Shown: piece after piece, positions 6,093 through 58,414 of the stretch
Numbering within the stretch: the first letter of the stretch is position 1
Layout of the letters: every line of letters starts with the position of its first letter
Virus record (IMG/VR): IMGVR_UViG_3300032303_002590
DNA from: a virus
Taxonomy: Duplodnaviria > Caudoviricetes
Direction: 5' to 3' (one strand)
DNA: 64,000 nucleotides
Program-made: the position numbers and the translations under genes
The notes under the pieces: generated by a model
The model's database searches: none
What the model was told of the DNA's origin: nothing
What the model saw: only the letters and a program-made list of their open reading frames with translations

Positions 6093-6101
6093 TAAATGAA
6101 T

Positions 6102-6766: not shown

Positions 6767-6823
6767 AATAAATTTCGTATATTTAATCTGTAAGAAAGTT
6801 AAATAATTAAAAAAGAAAATGTT

Positions 6824-7120: not shown

Positions 7121-7130
7121 ATTAAATAAA

Positions 7131-7192
7131 GGAAGGGAGTTTTTAACTCCCTTTTCGTATATTTAAGTATAATTAAAAAGATAAAAATTATG
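7131..7192 (+). promoter_or_regulatory. hairpin-promoter-leader cassette, near-duplicate of 7591-7652
   Basis: GGAAGGGAGTT..AACTCCCTTTTCGTATATTTAAGTATAATTAAAAAGATAAAAATTATG. Confidence 0.8.
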
Positions 7193-7333
7193 GAAAATTT
7201 AGACAGATTTTACGATTGGATGTTAAGAATGGGAAATGTACATTTAGCTGATAATGAGCAAATGTCAAAAGCATATGAAGCTATAGTGGAAAGTGATAAA
7301 CAAGTGAAAAATGTAATTTTAATAACTAAATAA
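7190..7333 (+). CDS. small hypothetical protein (47 aa, not in track)
   Basis: Starts at the cassette ATG; MENLDRFYDWMLRMG... Confidence 0.75.
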   Translation: MENLDRFYDWMLRMGNVHLADNEQMSKAYEAIVESDKQVKNVILITK

Positions 7334-7335
7334 TT

Positions 7336-7581
7336 ATGATAAACTTAACTATTCAAGATCAAATAAATGGTTCAAACAAAACACAAATGTTAAGAGAAGC
7401 AATTGGTAAGGAATTCAGTGATAATTATAGTTCAACTAATCGAAGTATGTTAATTGATGTAAGCGAATGTGGTAATGTTTGTTATACTATGGAAATTATG
7501 AGTGAATATTCAAAAAATGAACCTAAATTAGGTATTTTTAAACAACCAAGTTGGTTGACTTGGAACGGAATGTTTTATTAA
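7336..7581 (+). CDS. hypothetical protein
   Basis: ORF coupled to the upstream gene. Confidence 0.75.
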   Translation: MINLTIQDQINGSNKTQMLREAIGKEFSDNYSSTNRSMLIDVSECGNVCYTMEIMSEYSKNEPKLGIFKQPSWLTWNGMFY

Positions 7582-7649
7582 AGTAAAGATGGAAGGTGAT
7601 TTTAAATCACCTTTTCGTATATTTAAGTATAATTAAAAAAATAAAAATT

Positions 7650-7862
7650 ATGAAATTTATAAAATTAACATCAGTGGACCAATCCTCAATTTTAATTAAT
7701 GTAAACCAAATAGGACATTTTTATCAAGTTGATGATAAAATGGAATATGGAAGAGTTACAGAAAAAAAACATACCAGAATAGGTGTAACAACACATAATA
7801 ATGGTGGTTTTAAAGTAATTGAAAGTGTAGAAAAAATACTTAAATTAATTAGTGAGAACTAA
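7650..7862 (+). CDS. FlbD/SwrD-like small protein (start revised from 7596)
   Basis: MKFIKLT...ILINVNQI...T.I......F.VIESVEKI pattern resembles the FlbD family. Confidence 0.6.
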   Translation: MKFIKLTSVDQSSILINVNQIGHFYQVDDKMEYGRVTEKKHTRIGVTTHNNGGFKVIESVEKILKLISEN

Positions 7863-7931
7863 GGTATTTGAGAATTAAATAAAATTTCGTATATTTAATC
7901 TGTAATAAGTTAATAATTAAAAAAGAAAATT

Positions 7932-8198
7932 ATGAAAATCGAATTAAACACAGAAGCAAGAGACAAAAGAATTAACCAAAACTATCATGATGCCTTAAAT
8001 AAGATATCTTCTTATGCTGAACAAGGTTTTGATTTAACAGAACATATCTTTCCAAAAGATATATATGAACAAGTAAGGACTAAAATTAGTGATCACATGT
8101 ATGCGTTTGATATTAAATTTGTCTGGGCGAGTATAGGTAATATGAATAGTATTGCTGTTGGGGACGGTCGTTTAATGAGATTTAAACTGTTAAATTAA
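7932..8198 (+). CDS. hypothetical early protein
   Basis: Own promoter. Confidence 0.8.
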   Translation: MKIELNTEARDKRINQNYHDALNKISSYAEQGFDLTEHIFPKDIYEQVRTKISDHMYAFDIKFVWASIGNMNSIAVGDGRLMRFKLLN

Positions 8199-8270
8199 GG
8201 TATTTGAGAATTAAATTAAAGTTCGTATATTTCGAATGTTAAAAAGATAAATAATTAAAAAAGTAATGTT

Positions 8271-8438
8271 ATGAAAGAACAAATTTTAAATTTAGCAGAT
8301 GATTTATTTTTAGAAGATAATTCACCTAAAAGAGAGGCATTTATTAAAGAATTCGAAAGTGCAGTTGCATTAATGAGAGAAAATGATTTTGATCAATTTT
8401 ATGCTTTTGCAGATATTATAATGCAAAAATATAATTAA
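8271..8438 (+). CDS. small hypothetical protein (55 aa, not in track)
   Basis: Own promoter; GTTATG start; MKEQILNLADDLF... Confidence 0.75.
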   Translation: MKEQILNLADDLFLEDNSPKREAFIKEFESAVALMRENDFDQFYAFADIIMQKYN

Positions 8439-8450
8439 AAAATAAATGTT

Positions 8451-8648
8451 ATGAAAGTATTTAAAATTATAACTAAGGTAAAATCAGTTAAAACTATTCA
8501 ATATATTGTTGAAGCAAACTCAATAGAGGAAGCAGAAATGTTAATAATTGAAGGTAATGAAAGAGGTGAAGGTGAAGAAGTTAAAGATAAAATAAAATGG
8601 GGAAGTGAGATTTTAACTAAAATCGAATTTATAGAGGAATTAGATTAA
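8451..8648 (+). CDS. hypothetical protein
   Basis: Y.VEANSIEEA pattern common in small phage proteins. Confidence 0.8.
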   Translation: MKVFKIITKVKSVKTIQYIVEANSIEEAEMLIIEGNERGEGEEVKDKIKWGSEILTKIEFIEELD

Positions 8649-8707
8649 TTAAATTAATTTCGTATATTTAACATGTAAAAAAGATATAATAATTAAAAAA
8701 GAAAAAT

Positions 8708-8950
8708 ATGTTAGTATTTAAAGAAAATGTTTATGGTTTTGTTTATGATTCAGTTGATGGTACTGTTACAAAGGTATATAAGGAACCTTTAAAGGAAAAA
8801 GAAATATTTTTAATAAATAATGTATTAGATAAAGATGTTTATTTATTTACAGATATTGAAGATTGTAATGACTGTTTTAATATTATTACTAAGGAAGATC
8901 TTGATAATGATGAGGAAGGTTTAAATAAGGTATTTGATTTTATAAATTAA
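8708..8950 (+). CDS. acidic hypothetical protein
   Basis: Own promoter. Confidence 0.8.
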   Translation: MLVFKENVYGFVYDSVDGTVTKVYKEPLKEKEIFLINNVLDKDVYLFTDIEDCNDCFNIITKEDLDNDEEGLNKVFDFIN

Positions 8951-8996
8951 TTTCGTATATTTAATCTGTAATAAGATAATAATTAAAAAATAAGTT

Positions 8997-9323
8997 ATGA
9001 AAATACAATTTAAGGTTATCAATTTAGGTTTAAATGAATTTGGTGTTCAAGAATTAAATAATTATTATAAAGATAATATTAGTGAGAATTGGGTTCATAA
9101 ATTCAAATTAGGAGAAATTGTAGATAGTAACACAAAAATATTTAAACAAGAGAAATCATTTTTAAAATTGAAAGAAAATAACTATATTGGAAATTATAAT
9201 TGTACACAATATATTAAAGGTTCAGAATATGGTGGAGGTTATTTTTCAATTCAATTAAAACATATTAATTATAGAATAGTTAAATTAGAAATAATTGAGA
9301 AAGAGAATGAATTTGTTTTTTAA
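8997..9323 (+). CDS. hypothetical early protein
   Basis: Own promoter. Confidence 0.8.
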   Translation: MKIQFKVINLGLNEFGVQELNNYYKDNISENWVHKFKLGEIVDSNTKIFKQEKSFLKLKENNYIGNYNCTQYIKGSEYGGGYFSIQLKHINYRIVKLEIIEKENEFVF

Positions 9324-9380
9324 AATACTTTTCGTATATTTAATCTGTAATTGAGTTAAATAATTAAAAGAAAAAAAGTT

Positions 9381-9638
9381 ATGAAAAATGTATTTGTTAT
9401 GTCCTTTGTTGATGATTTAGAAACTGTTAATAAGTTTGATGAATTTGGTTTTGTTTGTGGAATTGATGATTCGGTAAATGGTATTTGGTGTTGTGAAAGA
9501 GATTTAAGTTATTTAAGTGAAGAAGAAGTAATTAATTTTATTGAAAAAACATCTAAGGAATTGGACTATTTTGTTAATGTAAATGGTGAAAATTTTGATA
9601 AAGAAGATATTGAATTAATTAAAAATAAATTAAATTAA
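9381..9638 (+). CDS. acidic hypothetical protein
   Basis: Own promoter. Confidence 0.8.
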   Translation: MKNVFVMSFVDDLETVNKFDEFGFVCGIDDSVNGIWCCERDLSYLSEEEVINFIEKTSKELDYFVNVNGENFDKEDIELIKNKLN

Positions 9639-9642
9639 GGTT

Positions 9643-9834
9643 ATGAAGAAATTGAATAGTTTTGAAAGTTATTTAGTGATTGAAGGATTAAATAATTTAA
9701 AGGAGGAATATAAAAAAGATATAAGAAGAATTATTGAAGAAGGTAAAAATCCTTTAATGACTCAAGGTTATATAGAAATGGTGGTGGAAGAAACAATAAA
9801 TAAAATAAAACAACTGACACTAAAACAAAAATAA
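9643..9834 (+). CDS. hypothetical protein
   Basis: GGTTATG start. Confidence 0.8.
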   Translation: MKKLNSFESYLVIEGLNNLKEEYKKDIRRIIEEGKNPLMTQGYIEMVVEETINKIKQLTLKQK

Positions 9835-9879
9835 AACTCAGTAAATAAATGATGGAAGATAAAGAAATATTATTAAGTG

Positions 9880-10180
9880 ATTTAGTGGGGGAAAACTAAA
9901 TAAGTAATGTAAAAGAAATGTAGAGGTAATGTAGGGGAAGTGATTTCCCTATCTCTATTATAATGTGGAAAAAACATCCTATGAGGGAACGTATTTAGGA
10001 AAGATAATCCTAATATGAGTGAGGAATAGGATTGTATGTGGAAATGAGTAGTGGTGTGATGTGGTGGTTGGGAGGAAGGTACCGGTACTTTACCTATCCC
10101 AGGAAAACAATTCCTCCCCCCTAAAAAAGTATATACAAACCCTACCTCCAATTTCCAATTCCCTCAATAAAAGCAACGGT
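9880..10180. other. non-coding region with a G-rich to C-rich switch centred on palindrome GTACCGGTAC
   Basis: Perfect 10-bp palindrome at 10079-10088 inside imperfect inverted repeat 10069-10101. Confidence 0.7.
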
Positions 10181-10278
10181 TTATAAAAAATATGTTGTAA
10201 AATGGTTGGAGTTTTAAAATATCTTTCGTATATTTAATATGTAAGAAAGTTAAATAATTAAAAGAAAAATAAAAGGTT

Positions 10279-10650
10279 ATGACAAAAGAACAATTTTTAA
10301 ACGGAACTGAATTTTATATTGGTAGAAAAAGTTACAAAGGAGCGGAAACATATTCCTACAATGCAAAAGACAATTATATGTCTAAACAAATCAGATCTTC
10401 TATTGATGAAAGAGTGGTATTAGAAGACTATGTTTGTAACGTAACAAAGATTGGTCGTGTAGGTTTTGTATGTATTACATTTGTAATGAAAAAGAAAGTA
10501 GTAGTTAAATATAAGTTTGAAGATTTGGTTGAATTTGAAGATCAAGGACCACAATATGATGGTGCGGGATTTAGTATTGAAGATAGAGAAGATGATGATG
10601 AAGAACAATCACACCACTGCGATGATCCATCTTGTAACTGTTCAATTTAG
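10279..10650 (+). CDS. hypothetical protein with acidic His/Cys tail
   Basis: Own promoter; ends EDDDEEQSHHCDDPSCNCSI. Confidence 0.8.
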   Translation: MTKEQFLNGTEFYIGRKSYKGAETYSYNAKDNYMSKQIRSSIDERVVLEDYVCNVTKIGRVGFVCITFVMKKKVVVKYKFEDLVEFEDQGPQYDGAGFSIEDREDDDEEQSHHCDDPSCNCSI

Positions 10651-10695
10651 TAAAATTTGAAGGGGAGAATAGCTAACTCCCCAAGTATTAATCCA

Positions 10696-10766
10696 GACTA
10701 ATAGGCGTAATTGGAAAAACGCTCCGCAATGACGGAAGAGAGTGGGTTCGATTCCCACATTAGTCA
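10696..10766 (+). tRNA. tRNA-like RNA or pseudo-tRNA with shortened anticodon arm
   Basis: Acceptor GACTAAT/ATTAGTC; D arm GCGT-AATTGGAAAA-ACGC; T arm GTGGG-TTCGATT-CCCAC; anticodon arm only TCCG-CAATGA-CGGA; no encoded CCA. Confidence 0.7.
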
Positions 10767-10817
10767 CTATAGTGCTTCTCATAACCACTATTATTTTTTA
10801 ATTATTACAAGCCAGCC

Positions 10818-10838
10818 GCCCCACTATGTGGGGCTTTT
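10818..10838 (+). terminator. intrinsic terminator after the tRNA-like element
   Basis: GCCCCAC-tat-GTGGGGC-TTTT. Confidence 0.7.
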
Positions 10839-11035
10839 GGTGATTAATGGAGGATCCTCCCCATATAGCGCGCCTCATGGTGAAGGATGCTCTACGTTAT
10901 AGACGAAAGAGAAAGGATCCATGAGCAATGCTCAATGAATATCCCAACTTATTGAGCATCTGTTAGTTTGCGTGGTAAATTTGGATACGCTAAAATAATT
11001 TCGTATATTTACATGTAATTAAAAAATGATATATT

Positions 11036-11218
11036 ATGAAAAAGTTTACAGTAGAAATTGGTCTTAGAAAACAAGCTAATAAAGCCTTAATCAATTCAAA
11101 TAAGTTAAAACATGTGTTTTATAATACCGGAACTACCTTTATTGTAAACAGTGAAGATTTAGGTGATTGTATTGATATATTAGATCGAAACATGATAAAA
11201 GTGAATTTGATTAGTTAA
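11036..11218 (+). CDS. hypothetical protein
   Basis: Own promoter (TTGG-N19-TATATT). Confidence 0.75.
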   Translation: MKKFTVEIGLRKQANKALINSNKLKHVFYNTGTTFIVNSEDLGDCIDILDRNMIKVNLIS

Positions 11219-11275
11219 AACAATTTCGTATATTTAACATGTAATAAGAAATTAATTAATAAATAAATAAAGGTT

Positions 11276-11641
11276 ATGAAAAATCAAGAAACAAAATTAG
11301 GTAGACCAGTTAACGTAAATTCAGTAAGACAAATTAGATTGGCCGAATTGGCTGCCAAACGTGAGGCAGGTGAAATTAAACGTGGAAGACCCGTGAATGT
11401 TGAAAGTAAATTCAACCAACGTAAATTGGAATTAGAGGCTAAACGTTTAAATGGAGAATTAAAACGTGGTAGACCAGTAGTGGAAGGATCTAAACGTCAA
11501 TTAAGATTATCAGTTAAGGGATTAGTTAAATTAGGACGTAAGCCAAACCCTCTAAGTAAATCCTACCAACGTAAGTTGGAGTTGCAAACAAAACGTTTGA
11601 ATGGGACCATAAAATTAGGTCGTCCTGCTAAAGCGGAATAA
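11276..11641 (+). CDS. basic repeat protein with AT-hook-like K(L/R)GRP motifs; putative DNA-binding
   Basis: Four K(L/R)GRP motifs plus one KLGRK in repeats of about 28 aa. Confidence 0.8.
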   Translation: MKNQETKLGRPVNVNSVRQIRLAELAAKREAGEIKRGRPVNVESKFNQRKLELEAKRLNGELKRGRPVVEGSKRQLRLSVKGLVKLGRKPNPLSKSYQRKLELQTKRLNGTIKLGRPAKAE

Positions 11642-34872: not shown

Positions 34873-35562
34873 ATGGAAAATACATTTAATTTAAAAAAAT
34901 TCCTTGCTGAAGGGAAATTATTAAAAGAAGAACAAACCTCGAATTTAGAACAAATAAACCCTGATTTTACCTCAGATAAAATAGTTACTACTTCTAATTA
35001 CGCTAATGATAGGGGACAACTTAAATCTCAATTTGGTAAACAATCCTATGATTTTGGAGGAAGTGAAGATCCTATTCCAAATTCTATAATAGTAGATGAT
35101 GCTGAACCTGAAGGTGATAATGAATGGATTCAATTCGATTTAAATAAAGTTGGAAAATTTCCACCAAAAAAATATATCAATTCAACTTTTACTATAGATT
35201 ATATTGATAATCAAAATAATTTAATAAAAACTATCCTAAACTCATTAGAAAGTGGTGGTATATTAGTTGTTTCTGAAAATGTGAAATCTGTATCTGATTT
35301 TTACAATAAACTGAAAAATAATTTTGATATATTAGAAGTTTATGATTTTATGGGTGATTTAAACGAAGGTGTATATACTCCCGAAGAAAGACAAGAAATG
35401 GCTGATAATATAAGAAAAAAATATACCATAAATGGTGTATACTATGATCCTTATTATCCCCTCCCACCTGGACTTAAATATGATAATGAAATGGGGGGTG
35501 ATGGTGAAGACGAAGAAGTAGATGAAAATTCAGTAATATCCCTAATTTTAAAGAAAAAATAA
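34873..35562 (+). CDS. leader-bearing protein with class I SAM-methyltransferase-like fold (start revised from 34840)
   Basis: Leader MENTFNLKKFLAEGKLLKEE; YDFGG...IVD...IQFDL...SLESGGILVV. Confidence 0.55.
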   Translation: MENTFNLKKFLAEGKLLKEEQTSNLEQINPDFTSDKIVTTSNYANDRGQLKSQFGKQSYDFGGSEDPIPNSIIVDDAEPEGDNEWIQFDLNKVGKFPPKKYINSTFTIDYIDNQNNLIKTILNSLESGGILVVSENVKSVSDFYNKLKNNFDILEVYDFMGDLNEGVYTPEERQEMADNIRKKYTINGVYYDPYYPLPPGLKYDNEMGGDGEDEEVDENSVISLILKKK

Positions 35563-35566
35563 AATT

Positions 35567-36010
35567 ATGTGGTTATACGAAAATAAAGAAATAAAAGAAT
35601 TAACAGATATGCCCGAATCTACATTCGGGTTTATTTATGAAGTAACTCATTTACCTACAGGAAGAAAATACTTAGGTAAAAAGCAATTAATATCTGTTCA
35701 AAGAAAAGCTTTAGGTAAAAAAGAATTAGCTTTAATTACTGATAAAAGAGCTTCTAAAAAGAAAACTGTTACTAAAGAAAGTGATTGGAAAACCTATTAC
35801 GGATCAAATCCAACAATTAAACAGATGTTAAAAGAAGGTAAACAAGACGAATTTACAAGAGAAATTATTATGTTTGTACCTAACAAAAAATTATTAACTT
35901 ACTATGAAGACAAATATCTTTATATTAATGAGGTAATAGAAAAAGGAGATACATATTTTAATGACAATATTTCAGGTCGTTTCTTTAAAAAAGACTTTAT
36001 AAAAAACTAG
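35567..36010 (+). CDS. GIY-YIG endonuclease, T4 endonuclease II (DenA)-like
   Basis: GFIY.....TGRKYLGKK...ESDWKTYYGS...FNDNI. Confidence 0.8.
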   Translation: MWLYENKEIKELTDMPESTFGFIYEVTHLPTGRKYLGKKQLISVQRKALGKKELALITDKRASKKKTVTKESDWKTYYGSNPTIKQMLKEGKQDEFTREIIMFVPNKKLLTYYEDKYLYINEVIEKGDTYFNDNISGRFFKKDFIKN

Positions 36011-37924: not shown

Positions 37925-37947
37925 ATATTTATATTAATAATATAAGA

Positions 37948-38700
37948 ATGATCAAACTAGCTACTTTATTAAAAGAAATACAAGGTACACCAAAAGCTAT
38001 ATTTTTAGCAGGTCCTGCTGGTAGTGGTAAGTCTACTTTGACTAAACAACTATTACCTTCCTCATACCAAGTTATTAATTCAGATGACACTTATGAAGAA
38101 CTTTTAAAAGCAAGTGGAATAGGTTTAAAACAAAAAGATTTTACTCCTGATCAATTATCACAAGCAGCTAAATTACAAGCACAAGCTAGAAAAACAACAC
38201 AAGATACATTAGCTAAATCCATCGAAGGTAAAAACAATATTATTATAGATGGAACTGGTGCTGCTTCAGGTCCTGTTTTAAAGAAAAAACAACAATTAGA
38301 GGATTTAGAGTACGAAACCTTAATGTTAATGATTTATGTTTCTCCTTTAACTTCACTTGAACGTAACCAAGAACGTGATAGAAGTTTAATACCCAGTATT
38401 GTGTTAAGAACATGGAGAGATGTTAATAAAAATATTAGTACTTACGAGCAAGCATTTGGAGATAATTTTATATTATTAAATAATGATTCTAAAGATTCAA
38501 ATAAAGGATTTTCACCCGAACTAATCAAACCCTTTACACAAGCCTCTTCTGCTATAGGAAAACCTAAAACACCAGAAGAAATGGCTAAATCTAAAGCTGA
38601 AAAAGATGCTTTGAATCAAGATATTGAATCAATGGTAAAAACTTTACCTAAATTTGATGATATAAGTTCTGCTAAATCTAAAATTCAAAATTTTATTTAA
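37948..38700 (+). CDS. P-loop kinase (AAA_33/zeta-like) with leader
   Basis: GPAGSGKST, INSD, IIDGT, ERN..R.R; N-terminus MIKLATLLKE. Confidence 0.85.
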   Translation: MIKLATLLKEIQGTPKAIFLAGPAGSGKSTLTKQLLPSSYQVINSDDTYEELLKASGIGLKQKDFTPDQLSQAAKLQAQARKTTQDTLAKSIEGKNNIIIDGTGAASGPVLKKKQQLEDLEYETLMLMIYVSPLTSLERNQERDRSLIPSIVLRTWRDVNKNISTYEQAFGDNFILLNNDSKDSNKGFSPELIKPFTQASSAIGKPKTPEEMAKSKAEKDALNQDIESMVKTLPKFDDISSAKSKIQNFI

Positions 38701-40145
38701 TGAATATTGGTAGACAAATAGTACAAGAACTATTAGAAGGTACAGAAAAAACAGTAGCTATTTATGGTGGTGGTTTTAAACCACCTACAAAAGGTCACTT
38801 TGAAGTAGCTAAATTAGCTTTAGAAAGACATCCAAATATAGACGAACTTATAATATATGTTGGTAGTGGAGTAAGAGATGGTATTACACAACAACAATCT
38901 GTAACCATTTGGAATATTTATAAAACTAAACTATCAGATAAAGTTCAAATAGTTACTCCTGATGTTCCTCCTGTTAGAGCAGTATTAAGATATGCTAAAG
39001 ATAATCCTGATACTAAGGTAATATGGATCTTAGGAGCAAGAGAAGACAGAGAAGAGGATTTTACAGATATAGCTAAACGAACTAAATCTATAGCTCAATA
39101 CCCAAACCTAACAGTAGATATAATATCAACTCAAGGTGGTATTTCAGGTACTGCAGCTAGACAAGCACTTAATTCTTCTAAAGAAGATTTCTTTCAATTT
39201 TTACCTGATGAGGTAGGACAACAAAAAAATGATATTTATGATATTTTAACCAATAACCAGTTTGAAGAAAGATTTATTCCTGGTCCTTTATTACATGAAT
39301 CTAAAATATTAAACGAATCCTTTACCCCTCAAAAAGCTCCATTAATGAAAAGATTTGTGGAATATGCTTGTAATCATTTAGATATAGATGAGCCTAAAAT
39401 AATGATAATAAATTCTCCTGAATACACTCAGGAACATCATAGTTTTGGAGGTTATTTTCCTCAAGAACATAAAATAAACGTTGTAGTTCATAATAGAAAC
39501 ATGGCTGATATTTTAAGAACATTAGCACACGAATTAGTTCATCACCTCCAAAATTTAAATGGGATGGAATTAAATGGTGAGGATGGTTCTGATACAGAAA
39601 ATGAAGCTAATGCTAGAGCAGGAGTAATAATGAGAGAATTTGGACGTAGTAATCCTGAAATTTTTGAAAGTAAATTAAATGAAGCAATAGTTGGTGATAG
39701 GATTGAATGTGATAATTGTGGTTGGAGTTGGCCAATAGCAGATGGGGGTGATGATCTTTTTATTTGTCATAAATGTGGACACGACAATACTGAGGAATAC
39801 GATGTTGAAAATGAACAAGATTTAAAAGAATTTATTTCATTTTTAAAAGAATATTCTCAACAATTATCTGAAGGAGAATTAACTGAAGCTGAATATCATG
39901 GACGTAAAGTTCAACTTGGTAAAATAATGCAAGGTGATATTAAGAAATTTAAAGTATACGTTAAAAATAACAAGGATAAAGTAGTTAAAGTTAACTTTGG
40001 GTTTGGTGGTTCATCAGCTCATGGTAAAAGAATGAACATTAAAGTACACAATCCTAAAAGAAGAGCAGCATATAGAGCAAGACATAATTGTGATAACCCA
40101 GGACCACGTTGGAAAGCGAATTATTGGTCTTGTAGAAAATGGTAA
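38700..40145 (+). CDS. multidomain protein: HIGH-type nucleotidyltransferase, HEXXH domain, Zn ribbon and C-terminal Cys/Trp domain
   Basis: GGFKPPTKGH...ISGTAAR; AHELVH; CDNC...CHKC; RHNC...YWSCRKW. Confidence 0.85.
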   Translation: MNIGRQIVQELLEGTEKTVAIYGGGFKPPTKGHFEVAKLALERHPNIDELIIYVGSGVRDGITQQQSVTIWNIYKTKLSDKVQIVTPDVPPVRAVLRYAKDNPDTKVIWILGAREDREEDFTDIAKRTKSIAQYPNLTVDIISTQGGISGTAARQALNSSKEDFFQFLPDEVGQQKNDIYDILTNNQFEERFIPGPLLHESKILNESFTPQKAPLMKRFVEYACNHLDIDEPKIMIINSPEYTQEHHSFGGYFPQEHKINVVVHNRNMADILRTLAHELVHHLQNLNGMELNGEDGSDTENEANARAGVIMREFGRSNPEIFESKLNEAIVGDRIECDNCGWSWPIADGGDDLFICHKCGHDNTEEYDVENEQDLKEFISFLKEYSQQLSEGELTEAEYHGRKVQLGKIMQGDIKKFKVYVKNNKDKVVKVNFGFGGSSAHGKRMNIKVHNPKRRAAYRARHNCDNPGPRWKANYWSCRKW

Positions 40146-41284: not shown

Positions 41285-41899
41285 ATGAGCAAATTAGACT
41301 TAAAAAACATAATTAAAGAAAGTATTACTGATTACTTATCAGAATTAAACTCCGTTAATGAAAATGATCCTGCTGTGCCATCTGATTCTACAGGTATGGC
41401 TTTGGATATGATAAATAAAACTCCAACACAAACTACAAGTGGAAATCCTCTTAGAGAAAAATCTCCAGATATCGTATTAGAAAATAATATTTCTAAAGAC
41501 GGTAAACTTTATTTAGTTAAAGAAGCTTTAAATGAATCAACTGATTCAAATATGATAGAGGAAAAACTACTATTAGACTTGATTGGTGAAGGATATACTG
41601 GTGTTTTTAATGATAAAAACAAAGCCATGGCTCATAGTAAAAAAGCTCTTAAAGAGAGAGATTTACTAATGAAAGAAAATGTTAAAAAAGGTCAAGCTAA
41701 AATTGGTGGTTTAGAAAAACAAGTAGCTGATTTAAAAGCTCAAATGCAAAAATTAATTGATAGTCCTGAAATGAGAGGTGAATTATCAAACTATACTGCT
41801 AAATTAGAAAAAACTGAACAAGTATTAGAAAAATTAAAAGCAGCAATAGAAAAATCTTCTCCTAAAAAAGCAAAGAAAGAAACTAAAGATGATGAATAA
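41285..41899 (+). CDS. leader-bearing coiled-coil late protein
   Basis: MSKLDLKNIIKE; several L/VxE sites. Confidence 0.75.
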   Translation: MSKLDLKNIIKESITDYLSELNSVNENDPAVPSDSTGMALDMINKTPTQTTSGNPLREKSPDIVLENNISKDGKLYLVKEALNESTDSNMIEEKLLLDLIGEGYTGVFNDKNKAMAHSKKALKERDLLMKENVKKGQAKIGGLEKQVADLKAQMQKLIDSPEMRGELSNYTAKLEKTEQVLEKLKAAIEKSSPKKAKKETKDDE

Positions 41900-43292
41900 T
41901 CTTGAACTTTTAAAAAATCATTTATATAAGTTAATTAAAGAGGAACTTGAAGGTGGTGAAGAGGAAAAACAAGCAGGACTTGAAAAAGCTCTGTATGATT
42001 TAGTACTTGAACCTGCTGATTTGCAAGCCACTTTATCAGCATTATCCGATATCAAAAATTATGGTATTTATGCTAATAATTTAAGAGATCCTAAAATTAT
42101 TGCTAAAATATTTGGTCCACCTGTACCTGCAACTAAAGGTAGAGTAGCTAAAGAAACTTGGGACCAAAGTAATGAAAACGAAAGACTTTCCAAAATAATT
42201 GATATTAAAAGTAGAGTACCACAAGAATGGACTAAAGTAGAACAACAGCTACAAAGCAAATTCGATGATTGGTCTGTTGAAAATGATAACGATTCATTTA
42301 ATGAATTTATAATTACATTAGATTCTAAAGAATTACCAATGGATTTCTTTGGTAAATATGCTTCTACATTTTATCCAATGAAAACACCTGATAACTTGAA
42401 AAAGTATAGTGGTGTAATGGCTAAAGATAAAGATTTTGTTGTTAATGGAGATAAAATTATTTTCCCACAAAAGAAAAACCCATTTGAAACTAAAGATTAC
42501 TTAACTAAAGTACTTAAAACTATAATGGGTAATGCTAAACTACAATATAGCTTATCCCAACAAGAATCAGAAGGTCAACCAGCAACTACTTCAAATACAC
42601 AAGGTAAAGTTGAAAAAATTAACTTCGTTAAAACATTTGACTCACCTGAATTAGCAGCTAAATTTAAAAAATTAATACCAAAAGATTTTGCTGAAAAAAC
42701 TACTATTGAAGGTAATAAAATCACAGTATCCGATATAACAGACTCACAAAAGAAAAATTTAATAGCTGCTGCATTAAAATTTGCAGAATCACAACCTAAA
42801 AAGAAACCAATGAAAGAATCATTAAAAGAACAAATATCTCAAATGGTAAGAGAGGTATTGATTGAAAAAAAATTAACTAAAGCACAACTTGTAGCTAGAG
42901 ATAAAGAAGGAAAAGATATTAAAAAGAAAAATCCTAAAATGCCCGAAGGTGAAGCTTTTGCTATTGCTACTAAAAATGTAGAAAAGAAAAAAGCTGTAAA
43001 AGAGGATTTAGATTCTGCTTTATCTAAATTAGTTAAAGATGATGATGCTTCTGAATTAGTAGCTCTTATAAAAAATTTACCAAATGCAGCTAGAGAAAAA
43101 GTAGCTCAAATGCTTAAAATAGATTTAAGTAAAGGAGAAATGGAAGAAGCTCGTTTTCCAAAAGGAACAGACATTGGTAAAAAAGGACCTGGATTTAAAG
43201 CTGTAGAAAAAGCTGCTGAAAAAGAATATGGTTCAAAAGAAGCAGGACAAAAAGTAGCAGGTGCTATACTTAAAAAAGTAATGAAAAAATAA
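41889..43292 (+). CDS. leader-bearing multidomain late protein
   Basis: KLIKEE leader; internal second leader-like segment SLKEQISQMVREVLIE; basic C-terminal modules. Confidence 0.75.
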   Translation: MMNNLELLKNHLYKLIKEELEGGEEEKQAGLEKALYDLVLEPADLQATLSALSDIKNYGIYANNLRDPKIIAKIFGPPVPATKGRVAKETWDQSNENERLSKIIDIKSRVPQEWTKVEQQLQSKFDDWSVENDNDSFNEFIITLDSKELPMDFFGKYASTFYPMKTPDNLKKYSGVMAKDKDFVVNGDKIIFPQKKNPFETKDYLTKVLKTIMGNAKLQYSLSQQESEGQPATTSNTQGKVEKINFVKTFDSPELAAKFKKLIPKDFAEKTTIEGNKITVSDITDSQKKNLIAAALKFAESQPKKKPMKESLKEQISQMVREVLIEKKLTKAQLVARDKEGKDIKKKNPKMPEGEAFAIATKNVEKKKAVKEDLDSALSKLVKDDDASELVALIKNLPNAAREKVAQMLKIDLSKGEMEEARFPKGTDIGKKGPGFKAVEKAAEKEYGSKEAGQKVAGAILKKVMKK

Positions 43293-43400: not shown

Positions 43401-43661
43401 ATGACAGAATCTACATTACGATACTTAATCAGAGAAGCAATAGAAGAAATTCATTTACAAAAACTATCTGAAAAATCTACTAATCCAACAGATAAAGTAA
43501 CTTTGGATATTCCACTTTTTATTCGTATGTTAGAATATGCGAGAGAGGATGCTCAAACTGATATGGATTTACATGATGTAACTGAAAAAACTATTGCTTT
43601 AAGCGCTAAAGGGAGAACTTTAACTATGGCTGACTATAATAAAATAGTAAGTAAAAAGTGA
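43401..43661 (+). CDS. leader-bearing small protein
   Basis: LRYLIREAIEE then DKVTLDIPLFIRMLEYAREDA. Confidence 0.8.
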   Translation: MTESTLRYLIREAIEEIHLQKLSEKSTNPTDKVTLDIPLFIRMLEYAREDAQTDMDLHDVTEKTIALSAKGRTLTMADYNKIVSKK

Positions 43662-43996
43662 TTAAATTAAGTCAATTAATAAACGAAATGGATTGTTGGG
43701 ATGGTAAAAAAATAGGCAATCCCAAAACTAAAATATCTTCTAAAACAGGTAAAAGAGTAAATAATTGTGTACCTATTAAAGAGGAAGAAGAAACATCTCA
43801 ATTAAATTTTCCTGATGGTTTTCAACCTGCAAAATCTGTTCCTCAAGGAGGAGCAATGTGTGCTAATTGTGCTAAATGGGATGAAAAAAATCAAGTTTGT
43901 AAAGGACAATACTATATTGAATGGAATGGTAATGGTGAAATACCTGCCGATCATACAGAATACGTTTGTATTTGGTGGGTAGATAAAAGAAAATAA
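43658..43996 (+). CDS. leader-bearing Cys-rich protein (HiPIP-like C-terminal motif)
   Basis: MIKLSQLINE; CWDG...NCVP; CANC..W...C...CIWW. Confidence 0.65.
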   Translation: MIKLSQLINEMDCWDGKKIGNPKTKISSKTGKRVNNCVPIKEEEETSQLNFPDGFQPAKSVPQGGAMCANCAKWDEKNQVCKGQYYIEWNGNGEIPADHTEYVCIWWVDKRK

Positions 43997-44346: not shown

Positions 44347-44637
44347 ATGACTAAATTAGAACTTAAAAAATTGATAAAAGAAACCATATTAAATGAAATG
44401 GTTAATACCCATCCAGTACATAAAAGTATTAATAATAAATTAATGCAAATTGCTAATCGTGAAAAAATGAATAGCGATGAAGACAAGGTTGTTGGGTATG
44501 TTTTTTGGGATAAACCCGAAGATCCTGAAAATTATCTTCAAACTAGAGTTTATTTAAATAAAAAAACAGGAGAAAGATATGTTAAACAAGTAGGTGATGG
44601 TGTAGGAGAAGATTTAAATCAACCACCAAATGACTAA
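44347..44637 (+). CDS. leader-bearing small protein
   Basis: MTKLELKKLIKETILNE. Confidence 0.75.
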   Translation: MTKLELKKLIKETILNEMVNTHPVHKSINNKLMQIANREKMNSDEDKVVGYVFWDKPEDPENYLQTRVYLNKKTGERYVKQVGDGVGEDLNQPPND

Positions 44638-46468
44638 ACTATCAATATTAAGAAGATTAATCAAAGAAGAGATTGAGGATTTCCAAAATTCTCAACCTTT
44701 GACTTTTGAAAGTGATCCATTAGAGTATATTCTTCAAAAGTATTCTTCATTAAATGATACATTAGAAGATTTAATGACACCACACTATAGAGATTTTATT
44801 TCTGGTGTATTTGTAATAGCTCCTAAACCAACTACATTTAGAGTTATACTTCATAATAAACAAGAATTTCTTTTAATTTATGGAGAAACTTGTTATACTG
44901 CTAAAATAGCAGGTAAAAAGTATTATTTAGAAAATTTATCTGAAGAAGAATTTGCTATTACTTCTATTGCTCAATTATTAGAACTAGGTTTACCTCCAGG
45001 AAGTACTGGACCTGAAAAACCAGAAGAAAACGAAGCAAACCCAACCGAAGAAAAACCAGCAGAAGAAGCACCAGAAGAAGAAACTAAACCAGAACCTGTA
45101 AAAGAAGGGGTAAAAAAAAACTTAAAATTCGTTATTAAGGAGGCAAGTTTATCACCTGCCGAATTAGAAAAACCATTTACTTCAAAATCCGAATTTAAAG
45201 ATCAATATAGTGATAGAGGTGAAAGATTTTTAGATAAAATAAAAAATCAACAACCTTTTGAATTAAATGATGGTACTCAAGTAGTTTTAGATCCTAAAGC
45301 AACTGCTGAAGCTATTAAAGATTTACAATCTAAAGATTACAAAACTTTAGGTAAAGGTAAAATCTTTATTGATACTGAAGGTAATGCTTATGGGTTATCT
45401 GCATTTAAAAAAACACCTGAATTTGGAAGTGGAGCAGGACAAGGTGGAGGAGCTGAAAATACTGATGTACAAGAATCTGCTCAAAGCGTAGTAAATTCTA
45501 TTGCCTATAAAATTTTAGGAAAAACTATTAAAGCTGAAGATTTAACACCTGAAAATTTAACCGCAGCATATGCTATAAGTGATGTTACTGCTGGATTAGA
45601 TTCTATTATAGAATATGTTACTACTAAAAAACAATGGACATCAACCTTTGTTAATACTGCAAATTTATTATTAAAAACTTTCCCAAGTAAATCTTTACAA
45701 CAACATAGAGGTTCTTCATTTGTAAAATCAATATATGGAGCATTTTCTGTTGCTAAAAAACAAGAAGGTAGTTCATTAAACAATGACAAATGGAACCCAG
45801 CTGATATTTGGATGGTAGATGAATCTATATTAGGAATGGAATTTCCAACTAATTTAGAAGAACTAAATGGAGTAATGGCTGATTTATATACTAATAAAAA
45901 ATTAATTGGTGTTTCATTAAAACAATTAGCCGGAGAAGGAGAAATTAAAGTCTATAATTTAGATAAGGAAGCTACTAAATCACATCAATATAAAGGATAC
46001 GAATCAAGAGCTACAAATAACAATACTGTTTTAAATTATGATGATGGATCTATTACATTCAGAACATTTAATTTTGCAGGTAATTTTGCAGGTGAAATAA
46101 AAGGTAAAAAAGCTGCTCATGGTAAAATAGGTCAGGGCCCTATTAATGATGTGTTAAAATTAAATGGGTTAACATTATTACCTAATGCTAAAGAAGTTCA
46201 AGATGGGTTTAAAAGCAATAATCAAAAGCTAATTGATGACTTTTATCAATCATATAAAGAAATAGTTGAAAATATTAACCCTGAACAATTTGATGAACTT
46301 GTAAAATCAAAAGATTTAAACTGGTTAACATCTAAGTATTTATCTACTAAATTAGCATTTATATTAAAATCATTAGAACCTGAAAAACAAAATGAAGTAA
46401 TATCAGATATGTTAAATTATGCTTCTTCATCAACAAAATCTAGTTCAGTATTTGTAAAAGTATCTTAG
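44630..46468 (+). CDS. leader-bearing protein with PD-(D/E)XK-like C-terminal domain
   Basis: LRRLIKEE; P/E linker; QES...KWNPADIW...IGVSLK. Confidence 0.65.
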   Translation: MTKLSILRRLIKEEIEDFQNSQPLTFESDPLEYILQKYSSLNDTLEDLMTPHYRDFISGVFVIAPKPTTFRVILHNKQEFLLIYGETCYTAKIAGKKYYLENLSEEEFAITSIAQLLELGLPPGSTGPEKPEENEANPTEEKPAEEAPEEETKPEPVKEGVKKNLKFVIKEASLSPAELEKPFTSKSEFKDQYSDRGERFLDKIKNQQPFELNDGTQVVLDPKATAEAIKDLQSKDYKTLGKGKIFIDTEGNAYGLSAFKKTPEFGSGAGQGGGAENTDVQESAQSVVNSIAYKILGKTIKAEDLTPENLTAAYAISDVTAGLDSIIEYVTTKKQWTSTFVNTANLLLKTFPSKSLQQHRGSSFVKSIYGAFSVAKKQEGSSLNNDKWNPADIWMVDESILGMEFPTNLEELNGVMADLYTNKKLIGVSLKQLAGEGEIKVYNLDKEATKSHQYKGYESRATNNNTVLNYDDGSITFRTFNFAGNFAGEIKGKKAAHGKIGQGPINDVLKLNGLTLLPNAKEVQDGFKSNNQKLIDDFYQSYKEIVENINPEQFDELVKSKDLNWLTSKYLSTKLAFILKSLEPEKQNEVISDMLNYASSSTKSSSVFVKVS

Positions 46469-48855: not shown

Positions 48856-49194
48856 ATGGAAAACACATTTAATTTAAAATCATTCCTTGCTGAAGGGAAA
48901 TTACTAAAAGAAGAAATTCAAAACCTAGAACCTAAAATTCAAGCCTTTAAAAATTATGCAGAACCTAAAGTAGAAGACTTTAGAGACTTTTTACTATTTC
49001 TTGCTGAAGGTATGGGACATCACCAAGATTTTACTAAATATTCTGATATTGACTTAATCAAAATGGCTATTGAATTTGATGAGGAAGAATCAGGAAATGA
49101 CTGGTTAGAAGATAACTATGGAATTGATGTGTTAGATGGAGAGATAGCTTCATATAATGATGAAATAGAAACTTCTGGTAAAAGAGAAAGATAA
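48856..49194 (+). CDS. leader-bearing acidic protein
   Basis: Leader MENTFNLKSFLAEGKLLKEE is almost identical to that of 34873. Confidence 0.8.
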   Translation: MENTFNLKSFLAEGKLLKEEIQNLEPKIQAFKNYAEPKVEDFRDFLLFLAEGMGHHQDFTKYSDIDLIKMAIEFDEEESGNDWLEDNYGIDVLDGEIASYNDEIETSGKRER

Positions 49195-57796: not shown

Positions 57797-58414
57797 ATGA
57801 GTAAATCACTATTAATAGAATACGCTTTATTTACACCTAAATCTGCAGTACTAACTGAAGGTAAAGGTGATAGAAACTTAATGGTTGAAGGTGTTATTCA
57901 AAGAGCAGATGCTAAAAATCAAAATGGTAGAGTTTACCCAAAAACTATCTTAGCACGTGAAGTTGAAAGATATATTGATGGACCAGTTGCTGAAAATAGA
58001 GCATTAGGTGAATTAGATCATCCTGAATCAATGGTTATTAACCTAAAAAATGTATCTCATAACATTAAACAATTATGGTGGAATGGAGATGATTTAATGG
58101 GTAAAGTAGAAGTATTACCAACACCTTCAGGTAACATCTTAAAAGAATTATTCTTAAATAACATTACAGTAGGTATCTCTTCTCGTGGTATGGGTTCAGT
58201 TCAATCATTAGGAGAAGGTACAGTTGAAGTACAAGATGATTTTGAATTATTATGTTGGGATTTTGTTTCTACCCCATCAACACAAGGTGCTTTTATGACT
58301 CCAACAGGATTAAGCGAAGGATACAAACCACAACAAACAAGTAAATACTCAAAAATTAATACTCTAGTATCAGACATTATCTGCTCTCAATCAGGTGTAT
58401 GCTGTATTAGATAA
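57797..58414 (+). CDS. prohead core protease (gp21-like)
   Basis: NQNGRVYP; ALGELDHP; GISSRGMGS; DFVSTPS. Confidence 0.95.
   Translation: MSKSLLIEYALFTPKSAVLTEGKGDRNLMVEGVIQRADAKNQNGRVYPKTILAREVERYIDGPVAENRALGELDHPESMVINLKNVSHNIKQLWWNGDDLMGKVEVLPTPSGNILKELFLNNITVGISSRGMGSVQSLGEGTVEVQDDFELLCWDFVSTPSTQGAFMTPTGLSEGYKPQQTSKYSKINTLVSDIICSQSGVCCIR

What the first reader, a model, noticed from the sequence alone, without database searches (positions are those of the whole stretch)
38700..40145. Four-domain polyprotein punctuated by protease-like LxE sites
Seen: nucleotidyltransferase (TKGH...ISGT) | LLHE.KILNE | HEXXH domain | IFE.KLNE | Zn ribbon (CDNC..CHKC) | LSE.ELTE | Cys/Trp domain. Doubled LxE-type sites fall at each apparent domain boundary. 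Inference: one leader carries four proteins into the head, where the gp21 protease separates them. This polyprotein strategy is familiar from RNA viruses but rarely described for phage cargo.
Basis: partly seen in the sequence, partly recalled or inferred. Interest (0 to 1): 0.72.

Follow-up and report, generated by a model that had tools for sequence, protein, structure and literature searches.

The report
Mosaic NMNAT–zincin protein, likely phage head cargo
One gene of a marine T4-like phage joins four separately mobile protein modules through short, conserved "hydrophobic-x-Glu" linkers that look like cutting sites of the phage's head protease, so it is probably a packaged precursor cut into pieces inside the capsid, but no cleavage has been shown.

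Summary
ORF 38700-40145 (+) encodes 481 aa, and every quoted motif is present. AlphaFold2 and relatives define five parts:
- an NMNAT-like nucleotidyltransferase (14-185);
- a minimal zincin HEXXH+E domain (208-323);
- a 4-Cys zinc ribbon (329-363);
- an acidic helix (364-396);
- a 10-kDa basic C-terminal domain, the CTD (397-481, pI 10.7).

The paired [LI]xE motifs lie at these boundaries, and relatives gain or lose modules exactly there.

Evidence for it:
- The phage has a gp21-type Peptidase_S77.
- The N-terminus and both flanking genes carry leaders like the T4 capsid-targeting sequence (CTS).
- The operon follows the TATTTATA motif also found before the terminase and portal genes.
- In 78 metagenomic ORFs with unrelated upstream parts, the CTD is preceded by [LIVM]-x-E|A in 76-77 cases.
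- Published virion proteomes of four cyanomyophages contain NMNAT-like proteins. The five cyanomyophage homologues I read, including MS-detected S-SCSM1 ORF91, start M-K-x-F-x-x-F-L-x-E|A, like T4's MKTYQEFIAE.

Corrections: IFE is the conserved end of the zincin domain, and the third site follows an acidic propeptide-like helix. Multidomain phage cargo is already described (polyvalent proteins, jumbo-phage head proteins). The conserved zincin is a rival protease.

The scan noted this same stretch twice, in overlapping windows of this genome, not on other DNA.

The parts
38700..40145 (+). Whole ORF, 481 aa (P0001), 54.9 kDa mosaic protein
   Evidence: full-length homologues 42-87% identical
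38700..38738 (+). N-terminal leader MNIGRQIVQE|LLE|G (res 1-13), an add-on helix before strand 1 of the nucleotidyltransferase
   Evidence: 100 of 111 non-redundant relatives carry a 15-20 aa leader with [LIVMF]xE here and 11 lack it entirely (MGK|VIAAYGGGF). pLDDT<50 for residues 1-14. Only a partial fit to the T4 CTS pattern: G at position 4, I7, V8, E10
38739..39254 (+). NMNAT-like / cytidylyltransferase-like nucleotidyltransferase domain (res 14-185) with TKGH and ISGTAAR motifs
   Evidence: Pfam PF01467 24.6 bits against a cut-off of 21. Block-mean pLDDT 67-93 from residue 11 to 180. Foldseek hits to NadM, NadD and PPAT at E about 1e-6. hhalign to the MS-detected virion NMNAT of cyanophage S-SCSM1: E 2.8e-5, probability 74%
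39255..39320 (+). Linker 1 (res 186-207) with LHE|S and LNE|S; the SKILNE piece is an optional 6-7 aa insert in relatives
   Evidence: pLDDT<50. The insert is present or absent in alignment A1. [LIVM]xE is 3.6-fold enriched in the 10 residues before the zincin domain across relatives that are no more than 50% identical
39321..39668 (+). Minimal zincin-like metallopeptidase domain (res 208-323): helix, three strands, HELVH helix, ENEAN helix; ends ...NPEIFE
   Evidence: Second AF2 model, block-mean pLDDT 87-98 over the core (about res 210-319). Weak but consistent Foldseek hits to IrrE/PprI, abylysin, SPRTN, Wss1 and selecase (E 0.0075-0.1). H277, E278, H281, E300 and E302 are invariant. About 25 relatives end exactly at IFE. 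The close relative L005 has this gene stopping at IFE*
39669..39683 (+). Connector 2, SKLNE (res 324-328), between IFE| and the next module
   Evidence: In 55 session proteins: position 3 is L or I in 44, position 5 is E in 54. It is followed by at least five different modules. Ser is coded TCT in linker 1 and AGT here, so this is not a DNA repeat
39684..39788 (+). Four-Cys zinc ribbon module (res 329-363)
   Evidence: phrog_8315, E 3e-5. pLDDT 79-89. Cleanly absent in P0005, P0007, P0008, P0034 and P0039. Lies before or after the zincin domain in other relatives
39789..39887 (+). Acidic helical segment (res 364-396, pI 4.05) with an internal CTS-like LKEFISFLKE (375-384) and the sites LSE|G and LTE|A
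   Evidence: it accompanies the basic domain in stand-alone relatives
39888..40142 (+). Basic C-terminal domain, CTD (res 397-481, 10.0 kDa, pI 10.65), starts AEYHGR
   Evidence: phrog_7595, E 5.8e-9. Stand-alone 79-aa gene in pelagiphage Kolga starting MAKYQGR. In 78 IMG/VR ORFs: P3 is L/I/V/M in 77, P1 is E in 77, P1' is A in 76, while P7-P4 and P2 vary. Fold not resolved (pLDDT about 35-65)
37926..37933 (+). TATTTATA promoter-like motif 14 nt (motif end to ATG) upstream of the kinase gene that heads the tightly coupled operon 37948-38700-40149-40692
   Evidence: 14 of 20 plus-strand copies lie within about 40 nt upstream of gene starts, including terminase 50891, portal 52526 and tail-region genes. 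Conserved before the kinase gene in relative L005
37948..38700 (+). Upstream operon partner: P-loop kinase (AAA_33/Zeta-toxin-like) with leader MIKLATLLKE
   Evidence: Pfam; strict CTS pattern; fused to the NMNAT protein in relative P0066
40149..40688 (+). Downstream operon partner: NT5C-type 5'-nucleotidase with leader MISISKLFEE
   Evidence: phrog_2643, E 6e-25; strict CTS pattern; fused in place of the CTD in P0090 and P0107
57797..58414 (+). gp21-type prohead protease (Peptidase_S77), the proposed processing enzyme
   Evidence: Pfam E 5.7e-31; phrog_207 E 1.7e-54

Best explanation
The gene encodes a mosaic protein assembled from modules that also exist as separate genes: a leader, an NMNAT-like nucleotidyltransferase, a minimal zincin, a zinc ribbon, an acidic helix and a small basic domain.

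The junctions carry the signature [LIVM]-x-Glu followed by a small residue. In this phage group the same signature ends the 10-residue N-terminal leaders of many stand-alone module proteins, and it is the recognition pattern of T4 gp21.

Most likely mechanism (inferred, not shown):
1. The protein is made from the TATTTATA promoter together with the kinase and the 5'-nucleotidase.
2. It is taken into the prohead core through its leader element or elements.
3. The S77 prohead protease cuts it at the exposed linkers.
4. This releases the nucleotidyltransferase (about 21 kDa), the zincin (about 13 kDa) and the basic 10-kDa domain, and removes the acidic pieces.
5. The products then travel with the DNA into the next host.

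Inferred: late timing, packaging, cleavage and delivery.
For: - Anatomy and exposed linkers.
- Modules inserted, deleted or replaced exactly at the junctions in relatives. The close relative L005 has the gene ending at IFE* in the same synteny.
- Junction conservation is at the protein level, not the DNA level.
- At the CTD boundary in 78 ORFs with unrelated upstream sequence, P3 is L/I/V/M in 77, P2 is free (10 residue types), P1 is E in 77 and P1' is A in 76, while P7-P4 vary.
- Pelagiphage Kolga is complete and has no S77 protease. It encodes the same domain with no leader, starting exactly at the residue after the proposed cut.
- S77 protease is present in the window and in 8 of the 13 CTD-bearing IMG/VR contigs that could be searched; the other five are 11-68% fragments.
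- Leaders with hydrophobic residues at 4, 7 and 8 and E at 10 sit on 4 gene starts in the window against 0.18 expected (p 3e-5), or 10 allowing a shift. These include both operon neighbours.
- T4 rule: CTS residues 4 and 7 target, 8 and 10 direct processing (PMC9026906). T4 CTS is MKTYQEFIAE (PMC8442874). T4 Alt is cut at ITE-6 and LTE-619 (PMC5694885).
- The five cyanomyophage homologues I read start MKSFLQFLKE|A (S-SCSM1 ORF91, the MS-detected one), MRSFLTFLTE|A, MKKFSAFLNE|A, MKKFSAFLTE|A and MKKFSTFISE|A.
- The TATTTATA motif is shared with the terminase, portal and tail genes.
Against: - There are no proteomic or biochemical data for this protein or any close relative.
- P0001's own leader has Gly at position 4 and fails the strict CTS pattern. 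Only 14 of 111 non-redundant relatives pass it.
- [LI]xE is a low-information motif in an E/K/L/I-rich proteome.
- The doubled form of the motif is confined to close relatives.
- IFE is part of the zincin domain's conserved end, and the Glu is T, N or F in distant relatives.
- The gene sits beside the primase and exonuclease in a synteny conserved as far as Flavobacterium phage immuto. Its enzymes act on small nucleotides, which fits a cytoplasmic role.
- The cyanophage authors themselves caution that virion detection could be carry-over of abundant proteins.
- Homology to the cyanophage virion NMNAT is remote (hhalign probability 74%).
- 'Late' timing of the TATTTATA motif is inferred only from the genes it precedes.
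Confidence: 0.45

Rival explanations
1. It is an intact cytoplasmic multidomain enzyme. The protein stays in one piece and works in the infected cell in nucleotide or NAD metabolism together with the kinase and the 5'-nucleotidase. The conserved linkers and leader-like pieces are leftovers of the gene fusions that built it, or serve as interaction helices, and are not cut.
For: - Conserved synteny primase, exonuclease, kinase, NMNAT protein, NT5C in Flavobacterium phage immuto and in metagenomic relatives.
- The operon partners are fused in relatives (kinase in P0066, NT5C in P0090 and P0107), which suggests they act together.
- The immuto homologue (907 aa) starts MSGVAGG with no leader.
- Prochlorococcus phage P-HM1 has a leaderless NMNAT ORF.
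- 11 of 111 relatives lack the leader.
Against: - It does not explain why P3 and P1 stay constrained while the neighbouring linker positions vary freely in unrelated contexts.
- It does not explain why a non-S77 phage drops the leader and starts at P1'.
- It does not explain why homologous enzymes turn up in four virion proteomes (PMC9602691, PMC10665884).
Confidence: 0.3
2. It is a self-processing polyvalent protein. The embedded zincin (HEXXH+E) cuts the polypeptide at its own flanks, in cis or in trans, with or without packaging, as proposed for polyvalent proteins of phages and conjugative elements.
For: - The catalytic residues are invariant.
- The fold matches the minimal zincin core that PMC5512222 describes as the hub domain of polyvalent proteins.
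- NMNAT plus zincin is the constant pair in most of the 266 proteins examined, while the modules between them vary up to 1549 aa.
- Two relatives give weak ART-PolyVal hits.
- ESK(I)LNE flanks the zincin on both sides.
Against: - The same junction and leader motifs occur in module strings that have no zincin (P0155, P0172, P0174 and others).
- The motif matches the specificity of S77 proteases, which cut after Glu.
- No Pfam MPTase-PolyVal match was found, only sub-threshold DUF3920 and DUF6782.
- The zincin could equally be an effector against host proteins.
Confidence: 0.15
3. It is chance or composition. The LxE motifs at the boundaries are what Glu-, Leu- and Ile-rich flexible linkers look like in an AT-rich phage, and carry no signal.
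For: About 5.5 [LI]xE are expected by composition in 481 aa. The background density of [LIVM]xE in relatives is 2% per residue.
Against: - Six of 11 motifs fall in about 9% of the length.
- P1 is E in 77 of 78 and P3 is hydrophobic in 77 of 78 at the CTD boundary, next to freely varying positions.
- P1 is E in 54 of 55 at connector 2.
Confidence: 0.05

Closest known systems
T4 internal proteins IPI/II/III and Alt (CTS-tagged, gp21-processed head cargo)
   Same: The phage is T4-like with an S77 prohead protease. The protein has a short N-terminal amphipathic leader ending in [LI]xE. The cargo bodies behind a shared leader type are unrelated, and one product would be a small, very basic protein. 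Alt is an enzyme cut at both ends (ITE-6, LTE-619; PMC5694885).
   Different: Several folded modules sit in one chain with internal candidate sites. The leader has Gly at position 4. The cargo would include a nucleotidyltransferase and a zincin. Nothing has been shown experimentally.
Virion-associated NMNAT-like / 'cytitidyltransferase' proteins of T4-like cyanophages (S-SCSM1 ORF91, S-CBWM1, S-SZBM1, S-CREM2 ORF154)
   Same: Same enzyme superfamily (hhalign E 2.8e-5) and T4-like marine phages. The five homologues I read, including MS-detected S-SCSM1 ORF91, carry an N-terminal leader fitting the T4 CTS. Kinases are also found in those virions, which parallels the kinase gene next door here.
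   Different: Only remote sequence similarity. The cyanophage proteins (about 390-410 aa) have a low-complexity spacer and a different C-terminal part, with no zincin, zinc ribbon or basic-domain string. In the passages I read, the papers that report them do not mention leaders or processing.
Polyvalent proteins of phages and conjugative elements (Iyer et al. 2017, PMC5512222)
   Same: Two or more unrelated domains in one phage polypeptide, extreme architectural shuffling among relatives, a zincin-like metallopeptidase as the recurrent domain, and predicted delivery with the DNA.
   Different: Much smaller. Anchored on an NMNAT-like domain, which did not appear among the passages of that paper that I searched. 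No match to the Pfam polyvalent-protein models at threshold. The junction motif points to the head protease rather than the zincin.
Multiply cleaved head and ejection proteins of phiKZ-like jumbo phages (201phi2-1, phiKZ, SPN3US)
   Same: A gp21-related protease cuts after Glu at a three-residue motif. Redundant neighbouring sites in propeptides help to clear fragments (PMC9026906, PMC5694885), which matches the doubled sites here.
   Different: Those cases remove long propeptides. They do not separate independent enzymes, and the motif there is (S/A/G)-x-E.

Membership tests
T4-type CTS-tagged, gp21-processed head cargo | Phage encodes a gp21-family (Peptidase_S77) prohead protease | tested here: met
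   57797-58414, Pfam PF03420 E 5.7e-31
T4-type CTS-tagged, gp21-processed head cargo | N-terminal leader of about 10-20 aa with hydrophobic residues at 4 and 7 and [LI]-x-E at 8-10 | tested here: inconclusive
   MNIGRQIVQE has G4, I7, V8, E10, then LLE at 11-13. It fails the strict pattern. The leader family is present in 100 of 111 relatives, but only 14 pass the strict pattern
T4-type CTS-tagged, gp21-processed head cargo | Protein present in purified virions with the propeptide removed | not testable with these tools
   Only indirect: NMNAT-like proteins in four cyanomyophage virion proteomes (PMC9602691, PMC10665884)
T4-type CTS-tagged, gp21-processed head cargo | Expression together with head genes (late) | tested here: inconclusive
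   A TATTTATA motif precedes the operon and also the terminase, portal and tail genes. Timing itself is not measured
Polyvalent proteins (Iyer et al. 2017) | Several unrelated domains in one phage polypeptide, with shuffled architectures among relatives | tested here: met
   (169-1549 aa, 15 domain orders for four query modules)
Polyvalent proteins (Iyer et al. 2017) | Zincin-like metallopeptidase domain of the polyvalent-protein type | tested here: inconclusive
   The fold and HEXXH+E fit the described core. There is no Pfam MPTase-PolyVal hit, only sub-threshold DUF3920, DUF6782 and DUF6055
Cytidylyltransferase-like / NMNAT nucleotidyltransferases (PF01467) | Rossmann-like fold with (H/T)xGH and ISxTxxR motifs | tested here: met
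   PF01467 24.6 bits, above the cut-off of 21. TKGH 30-33 and ISGTAAR 148-154. Foldseek hits to NadM, NadD and PPAT at E about 1e-6
Cytidylyltransferase-like / NMNAT nucleotidyltransferases (PF01467) | NMN (rather than pantetheine phosphate, NaMN or another) as substrate | not testable with these tools
   NCBIfam NMNAT, NadD and CoaD models all score far below their cut-offs. PPAT and NadD structures match equally well
Virus polyprotein in the strict sense (separate functional proteins released by a protease) | Demonstrated cleavage into independent products | not testable with these tools
   No data. The prediction is cuts after E200/E206, E323/E328 and E391/E396

The most novel reading that the evidence does not exclude
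This is a true cargo polyprotein of a tailed phage. A capsid-targeting leader brings a chain of independent proteins (NAD-synthesising nucleotidyltransferase, zincin protease, zinc ribbon, basic DNA-associated domain) into the prohead, and the gp21-type protease separates them. The gene would be one member of a family of more than 6000 proteins in marine T4-like and jumbo phages. In that family, leader-tagged modules are shuffled and fused at [LIVM]-x-E|A junctions, forming a combinatorial system for delivering enzymes with the DNA, possibly to restore NAD+ against NAD-depleting host defences.
Probability: 0.35. Interest if true: 0.82.

Novelty: new variant of a known kind. Interest (0 to 1): 0.62.

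Why it matters
If the linkers are real protease sites, T4-like marine phages have extended the internal-protein trick of T4. Instead of one leader per cargo, they string several cargo modules together and let the head protease separate them. That would explain the extreme domain shuffling seen in thousands of metagenomic proteins.

It would also give a mechanism for a puzzle already in the literature: NMNAT-like enzymes and kinases keep turning up in cyanophage virion proteomes. The leaders found here on the cyanophage proteins fit the T4 capsid-targeting sequence.

It would mark an injected NAD-synthesis enzyme as a candidate first-minute counter-measure to NAD+-depleting defence systems.

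The predictions are directly testable by looking for peptides that begin after Glu in virion mass spectrometry data, some of which already exist.

Tried and rejected
- DNA-level direct repeats as the cause of the similar linkers: rejected. The two ESK(I)LNE linkers use different Ser codon families, TCT and AGT.
- T4 late promoter TATAAATA: not enriched, 26 matches against 26.9 expected. The informative string is its reverse complement, TATTTATA, read on the coding strand.
- A strict doubled-motif search in distant relatives found it in only 14 of the 145 distant representatives listed, so the doubled form is clade-specific. A single [LIVM]xE remains enriched before the zincin domain.
- Foldseek with the full-length model returned only nucleotidyltransferases. 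A second model of residues 200-481 was needed to see the zincin fold.
- The C-terminal domain fold stayed unresolved. Atlas look-alikes are all uncharacterised viral clusters (DUF5754 and DUF5872 in part).
- The Atlas fold library was unavailable, and no whole genome is held for this window.
- tblastn of the neighbouring 467-aa Lys-rich protein found nothing in cultured phages.
- The S-SCSM1 supplement holds no peptide-level data, so removal of the leader could not be checked.
- A search for 'capsid targeting sequence' together with cyanophage found only the T4 review.
- No complex prediction was run, because protease-substrate pairs are poor targets for it.
Full report
**Observation**

The ORF at 38700-40145 (+) is real and encodes 481 aa (P0001). 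Its ATG overlaps the stop of the upstream gene.

The protein has 11 [LI]xE motifs against 5.5 expected from its composition. Six of them lie in about 45 linker residues (binomial p about 2e-4). That figure is only indicative, because the linker limits were partly set after seeing the motifs.

**What the window is**

The window comes from a T4-like myophage with about 29% G+C. It encodes:
- a gp23-type capsid protein (59658), a gp20-type portal (52526) and a large terminase (50891);
- a Peptidase_S77 (gp21-type) prohead protease at 57797-58414, Pfam E 5.7e-31.

The closest cultured phage is Flavobacterium phage vB_FspM_immuto, with 59% capsid identity.

**Anatomy**

Two AlphaFold2 models were made, one of the full length and one of residues 200-481 with a deeper alignment. 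Together with Pfam, PHROG and Foldseek they give:
- A leader helix, residues 1-13 (pLDDT<50 for 1-14).
- A cytidylyltransferase/NMNAT-like Rossmann domain, 14-185. PF01467 scores above its cut-off, the TKGH and ISGTAAR motifs are present, and NadM, NadD and PPAT structures match at E about 1e-6.
- A disordered linker, 186-207.
- A minimal zincin, 208-323. It has an N-terminal helix, three strands, a HELVH helix and an ENEAN helix. Block-mean pLDDT is 87-98 over its core. Foldseek hits to IrrE/PprI, abylysin, SPRTN, Wss1 and selecase are weak but consistent.
- A five-residue connector, 324-328.
- A four-Cys zinc ribbon, 329-363.
- An acidic helix, 364-396 (pI 4.05).
- A basic 10-kDa domain, the CTD, 397-481 (pI 10.65), whose fold was not resolved.

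The candidate sites LHE|S and LNE|S lie in the disordered linker. IFE|S and LNE|A lie at the end of the zincin domain and in the connector. LSE|G and LTE|A lie between the acidic helix and the first strand of the basic domain. None is buried in a confident fold.

**Relatives**

The protein has more than 6000 relatives in metagenomes, from 169 to 1549 aa. Mapping the four query modules on 266 of them gave 15 domain orders. The NMNAT and zincin domains are the constant pair, and variable modules lie between or after them.

Among full-length homologues, modules come and go exactly at the linkers:
- The zinc ribbon is cleanly missing in five of them.
- A CWDGY...NCVP mini-module is inserted once or twice after ...IFE-SK(L/I)NE.
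- An NT5C domain, which is the next gene in this window, replaces the basic domain in P0090 and P0107.
- The SKILNE piece of linker 1 is an optional insert.

About 25 relatives end exactly at ...NPEIFE. In a close relative with the same gene order, the gene stops at IFE*. The zinc ribbon, acidic helix and basic domain are therefore an add-on to an NMNAT-zincin core, and IFE is the conserved end of the zincin domain. In distant relatives that Glu is T, N or F.

**Are the junction motifs more than linker composition?**

Four results say yes.
- The two similar linkers use different Ser codon families, so the similarity is at the protein level.
- At connector 2 in 55 proteins, P1 is E in 54 and P3 is L or I in 44. 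At least five unrelated modules follow it.
- I fetched 80 IMG/VR loci encoding the basic domain, which gave 78 unique ORFs whose upstream parts are mostly unrelated. Just before the domain, P7-P4 are free (10-17 residue types) and P2 is free (10 types). P3 is L/I/V/M in 77 of 78, P1 is E in 77 and P1' is A in 76. That is the pattern of a recognition site of the type [LIVM]-x-E|A.
- Pelagiphage Kolga is complete and has no S77 protease. It encodes the same domain as a 79-aa gene that starts MAKYQGR, which is exactly the residue after the proposed cut, with no leader or acidic helix.

Of the 13 basic-domain IMG/VR contigs that could be searched, 8 carry an S77 protease. The other five are 11-68% fragments.

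**Leaders**

Notes from the first stage pointed to shared N-termini in this region, so I checked them.

A 10-residue pattern (hydrophobic at 4, 7 and 8, Glu at 10) sits at the start of 4 genes in the window against 0.18 expected (p 3e-5). Allowing a shift of up to three residues it sits on 10 genes, nearly all between 34873 and 49194. Both operon neighbours pass the strict pattern: the kinase with MIKLATLLKE and the nucleotidase with MISISKLFEE.

Stand-alone strings of the same mini-modules in metagenomes start MIKL(I/L)(D/N)(I/L)L(N/K)E, and 28 of the 78 basic-domain ORFs pass the strict pattern. Gene 43658 in this window is such a leader placed directly before the CWDG module. The internal connectors therefore look like what remains of leaders after gene fusion.

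This matches the T4 capsid-targeting sequence. It comprises the first 10 residues of IPIII, where positions 4 and 7 target and positions 8 and 10 direct processing (PMC9026906). Its sequence is MKTYQEFIAE (PMC8442874).

P0001's own leader is a weaker fit: MNIGRQIVQE|LLE|G has Gly at position 4. A leader of this family precedes strand 1 in 100 of 111 non-redundant relatives. It is absent in 11, so it is not part of the enzyme fold. A second element that passes the strict pattern, LKEFISFLKE, lies in the acidic helix.

**Independent experimental support from the literature**

While checking a neighbouring leader-tagged protein (44630), I found that its C-terminal domain matches S-SCSM1 ORF90, annotated as a virion protein. 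The next gene there is an NMNAT annotated as a virion protein.

The paper reports mass-spectrometric detection of that NMNAT in CsCl-purified virions. It notes NMNAT-like proteins in two other cyanomyophage virion proteomes (PMC9602691). A later paper adds S-CREM2 and lists S-CBWM1, S-SZBM1 and S-SCSM1. It also notes that kinases are frequently found in such virions (PMC10665884). Both papers caution that carry-over of abundant proteins is possible.

I read the N-termini of five cyanophage homologues: MKSFLQFLKE|A (S-SCSM1 ORF91, the only MS-detected protein among them), MRSFLTFLTE|A, MKKFSAFLNE|A, MKKFSAFLTE|A and MKKFSTFISE|A. These are close copies of the T4 CTS pattern. In the passages I read, the papers do not mention this.

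The NMNAT domain of P0001 is remotely related to these proteins (hhalign E 2.8e-5, probability 74%). A stand-alone zincin in Synechococcus phage B23 (MNYKQFLRE|S) and a basic-domain gene in cyanophage C48C1 (MKKFKQYIDE|G ... ELELTE|AEY) also carry such leaders.

**Expression context**

The T4 late-promoter string TATAAATA is not enriched. Its reverse complement, TATTTATA, read on the coding strand, lies within about 40 nt upstream of 14 gene starts. These include the terminase, the portal and tail-region genes.

One copy lies 14 nt (motif end to ATG) before the kinase gene, which heads the tightly coupled operon of kinase, P0001, nucleotidase and 40692. It is conserved in relative L005. The primase and exonuclease genes immediately upstream lack it. 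Late timing is inferred from this, not measured.

**Against the reading**

- There are no direct data for this protein.
- Its own leader is a weak fit to the CTS pattern.
- The motif has low information content.
- The doubled form of the motif is clade-specific.
- The synteny with replication genes is conserved as far as phage immuto, whose 907-aa homologue has no N-terminal leader.
- The enzymes act on small molecules.
- The invariant zincin is a credible alternative protease, as proposed for polyvalent proteins (PMC5512222). However, the same junction motifs occur in module strings that lack a zincin.

**Verdict**

The rivals are:
- an intact cytoplasmic fusion enzyme whose linkers are relics (0.30);
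- self-processing by the zincin (0.15);
- chance (0.05).

It is a new variant of known kinds: T4 CTS cargo, polyvalent proteins and virion-associated cyanophage NMNATs. Decisive tests are listed separately. The quickest is a semi-specific re-search of existing virion mass spectrometry data.

Noticed in passing
window 2200-11300 (upstream of starts 2254, 3688, 4491, 5005, 5378, 5715, 6470, 6824, 8997, 10279, 11276): A roughly 20-nt motif, TTTCGTATATTTAAGTATAA and variants, lies about 25-45 nt upstream of eleven small genes. It looks like a distinct (early?) promoter class, different from the TATTTATA class.
   Followed up: no
window, plus strand: 16922, 20066, 22864, 29811, 37926, 41263, 47891, 49806, 50869, 52501, 54461, 56227, 61366, 62083: TATTTATA lies within about 40 nt upstream of 14 gene starts, including terminase, portal and tail genes. 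Only 6 other plus-strand copies exist. It is a candidate late promoter and differs from T4's TATAAATA.
   Followed up: partly
window 34873-35562 and 48856-49194: Two genes with unrelated bodies share the same first 20 residues or so (MENTFNLK(K/S)FLAEGKLLKEE). The same start is seen in phage immuto (MENTFDLKKFLVENKL).
   Followed up: partly
window 43658-43996: A GTG-start ORF consists of a leader (V)IKLSQLINE placed directly before the CWDG...NCVP mini-module. That module is inserted after the zincin domain in relatives of P0001, and Kolga gp57 is the same module alone (32 aa).
   Followed up: partly
window 44630-46468; L088:1207-2541: The C-terminal domain (res 278-598) of this leader-tagged 612-aa protein matches ORF90 of cyanophage S-SCSM1 (E 2e-22), which is annotated as a virion protein and lies next to that phage's virion NMNAT.
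   Followed up: partly
L001:5158-7881 (Flavobacterium phage immuto gp182): The 907-aa homologue has an extra N-terminal Pol-beta-type nucleotidyltransferase-like part (GDLDIIV), an internal NMNAT domain and two HExxH motifs (HEMIHH and HEIEH). It has no N-terminal leader.
   Followed up: no
L093:480-1836 (Prochlorococcus phage P-HM1): The cyanophage cytidyltransferase is split here into a leaderless 189-aa NMNAT ORF and a separate ORF for the C-terminal part that starts MKSLADFTKK.
   Followed up: no
window 41889-43292: A 467-aa Lys/Glu-rich protein with a leader-like start (...LYKLIKEELE|GG) and no relatives in cultured phages. Relatives L005 and L006 have 539- and 783-aa versions.
   Followed up: partly
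window 35567-36010; L005:2864-3325: The small ORF before the primase reads like a GIY-YIG homing endonuclease (GFIYEVTH...GRKYLGKK, by eye). The relative carries a SegE_GIY-YIG gene at the same place.
   Followed up: no
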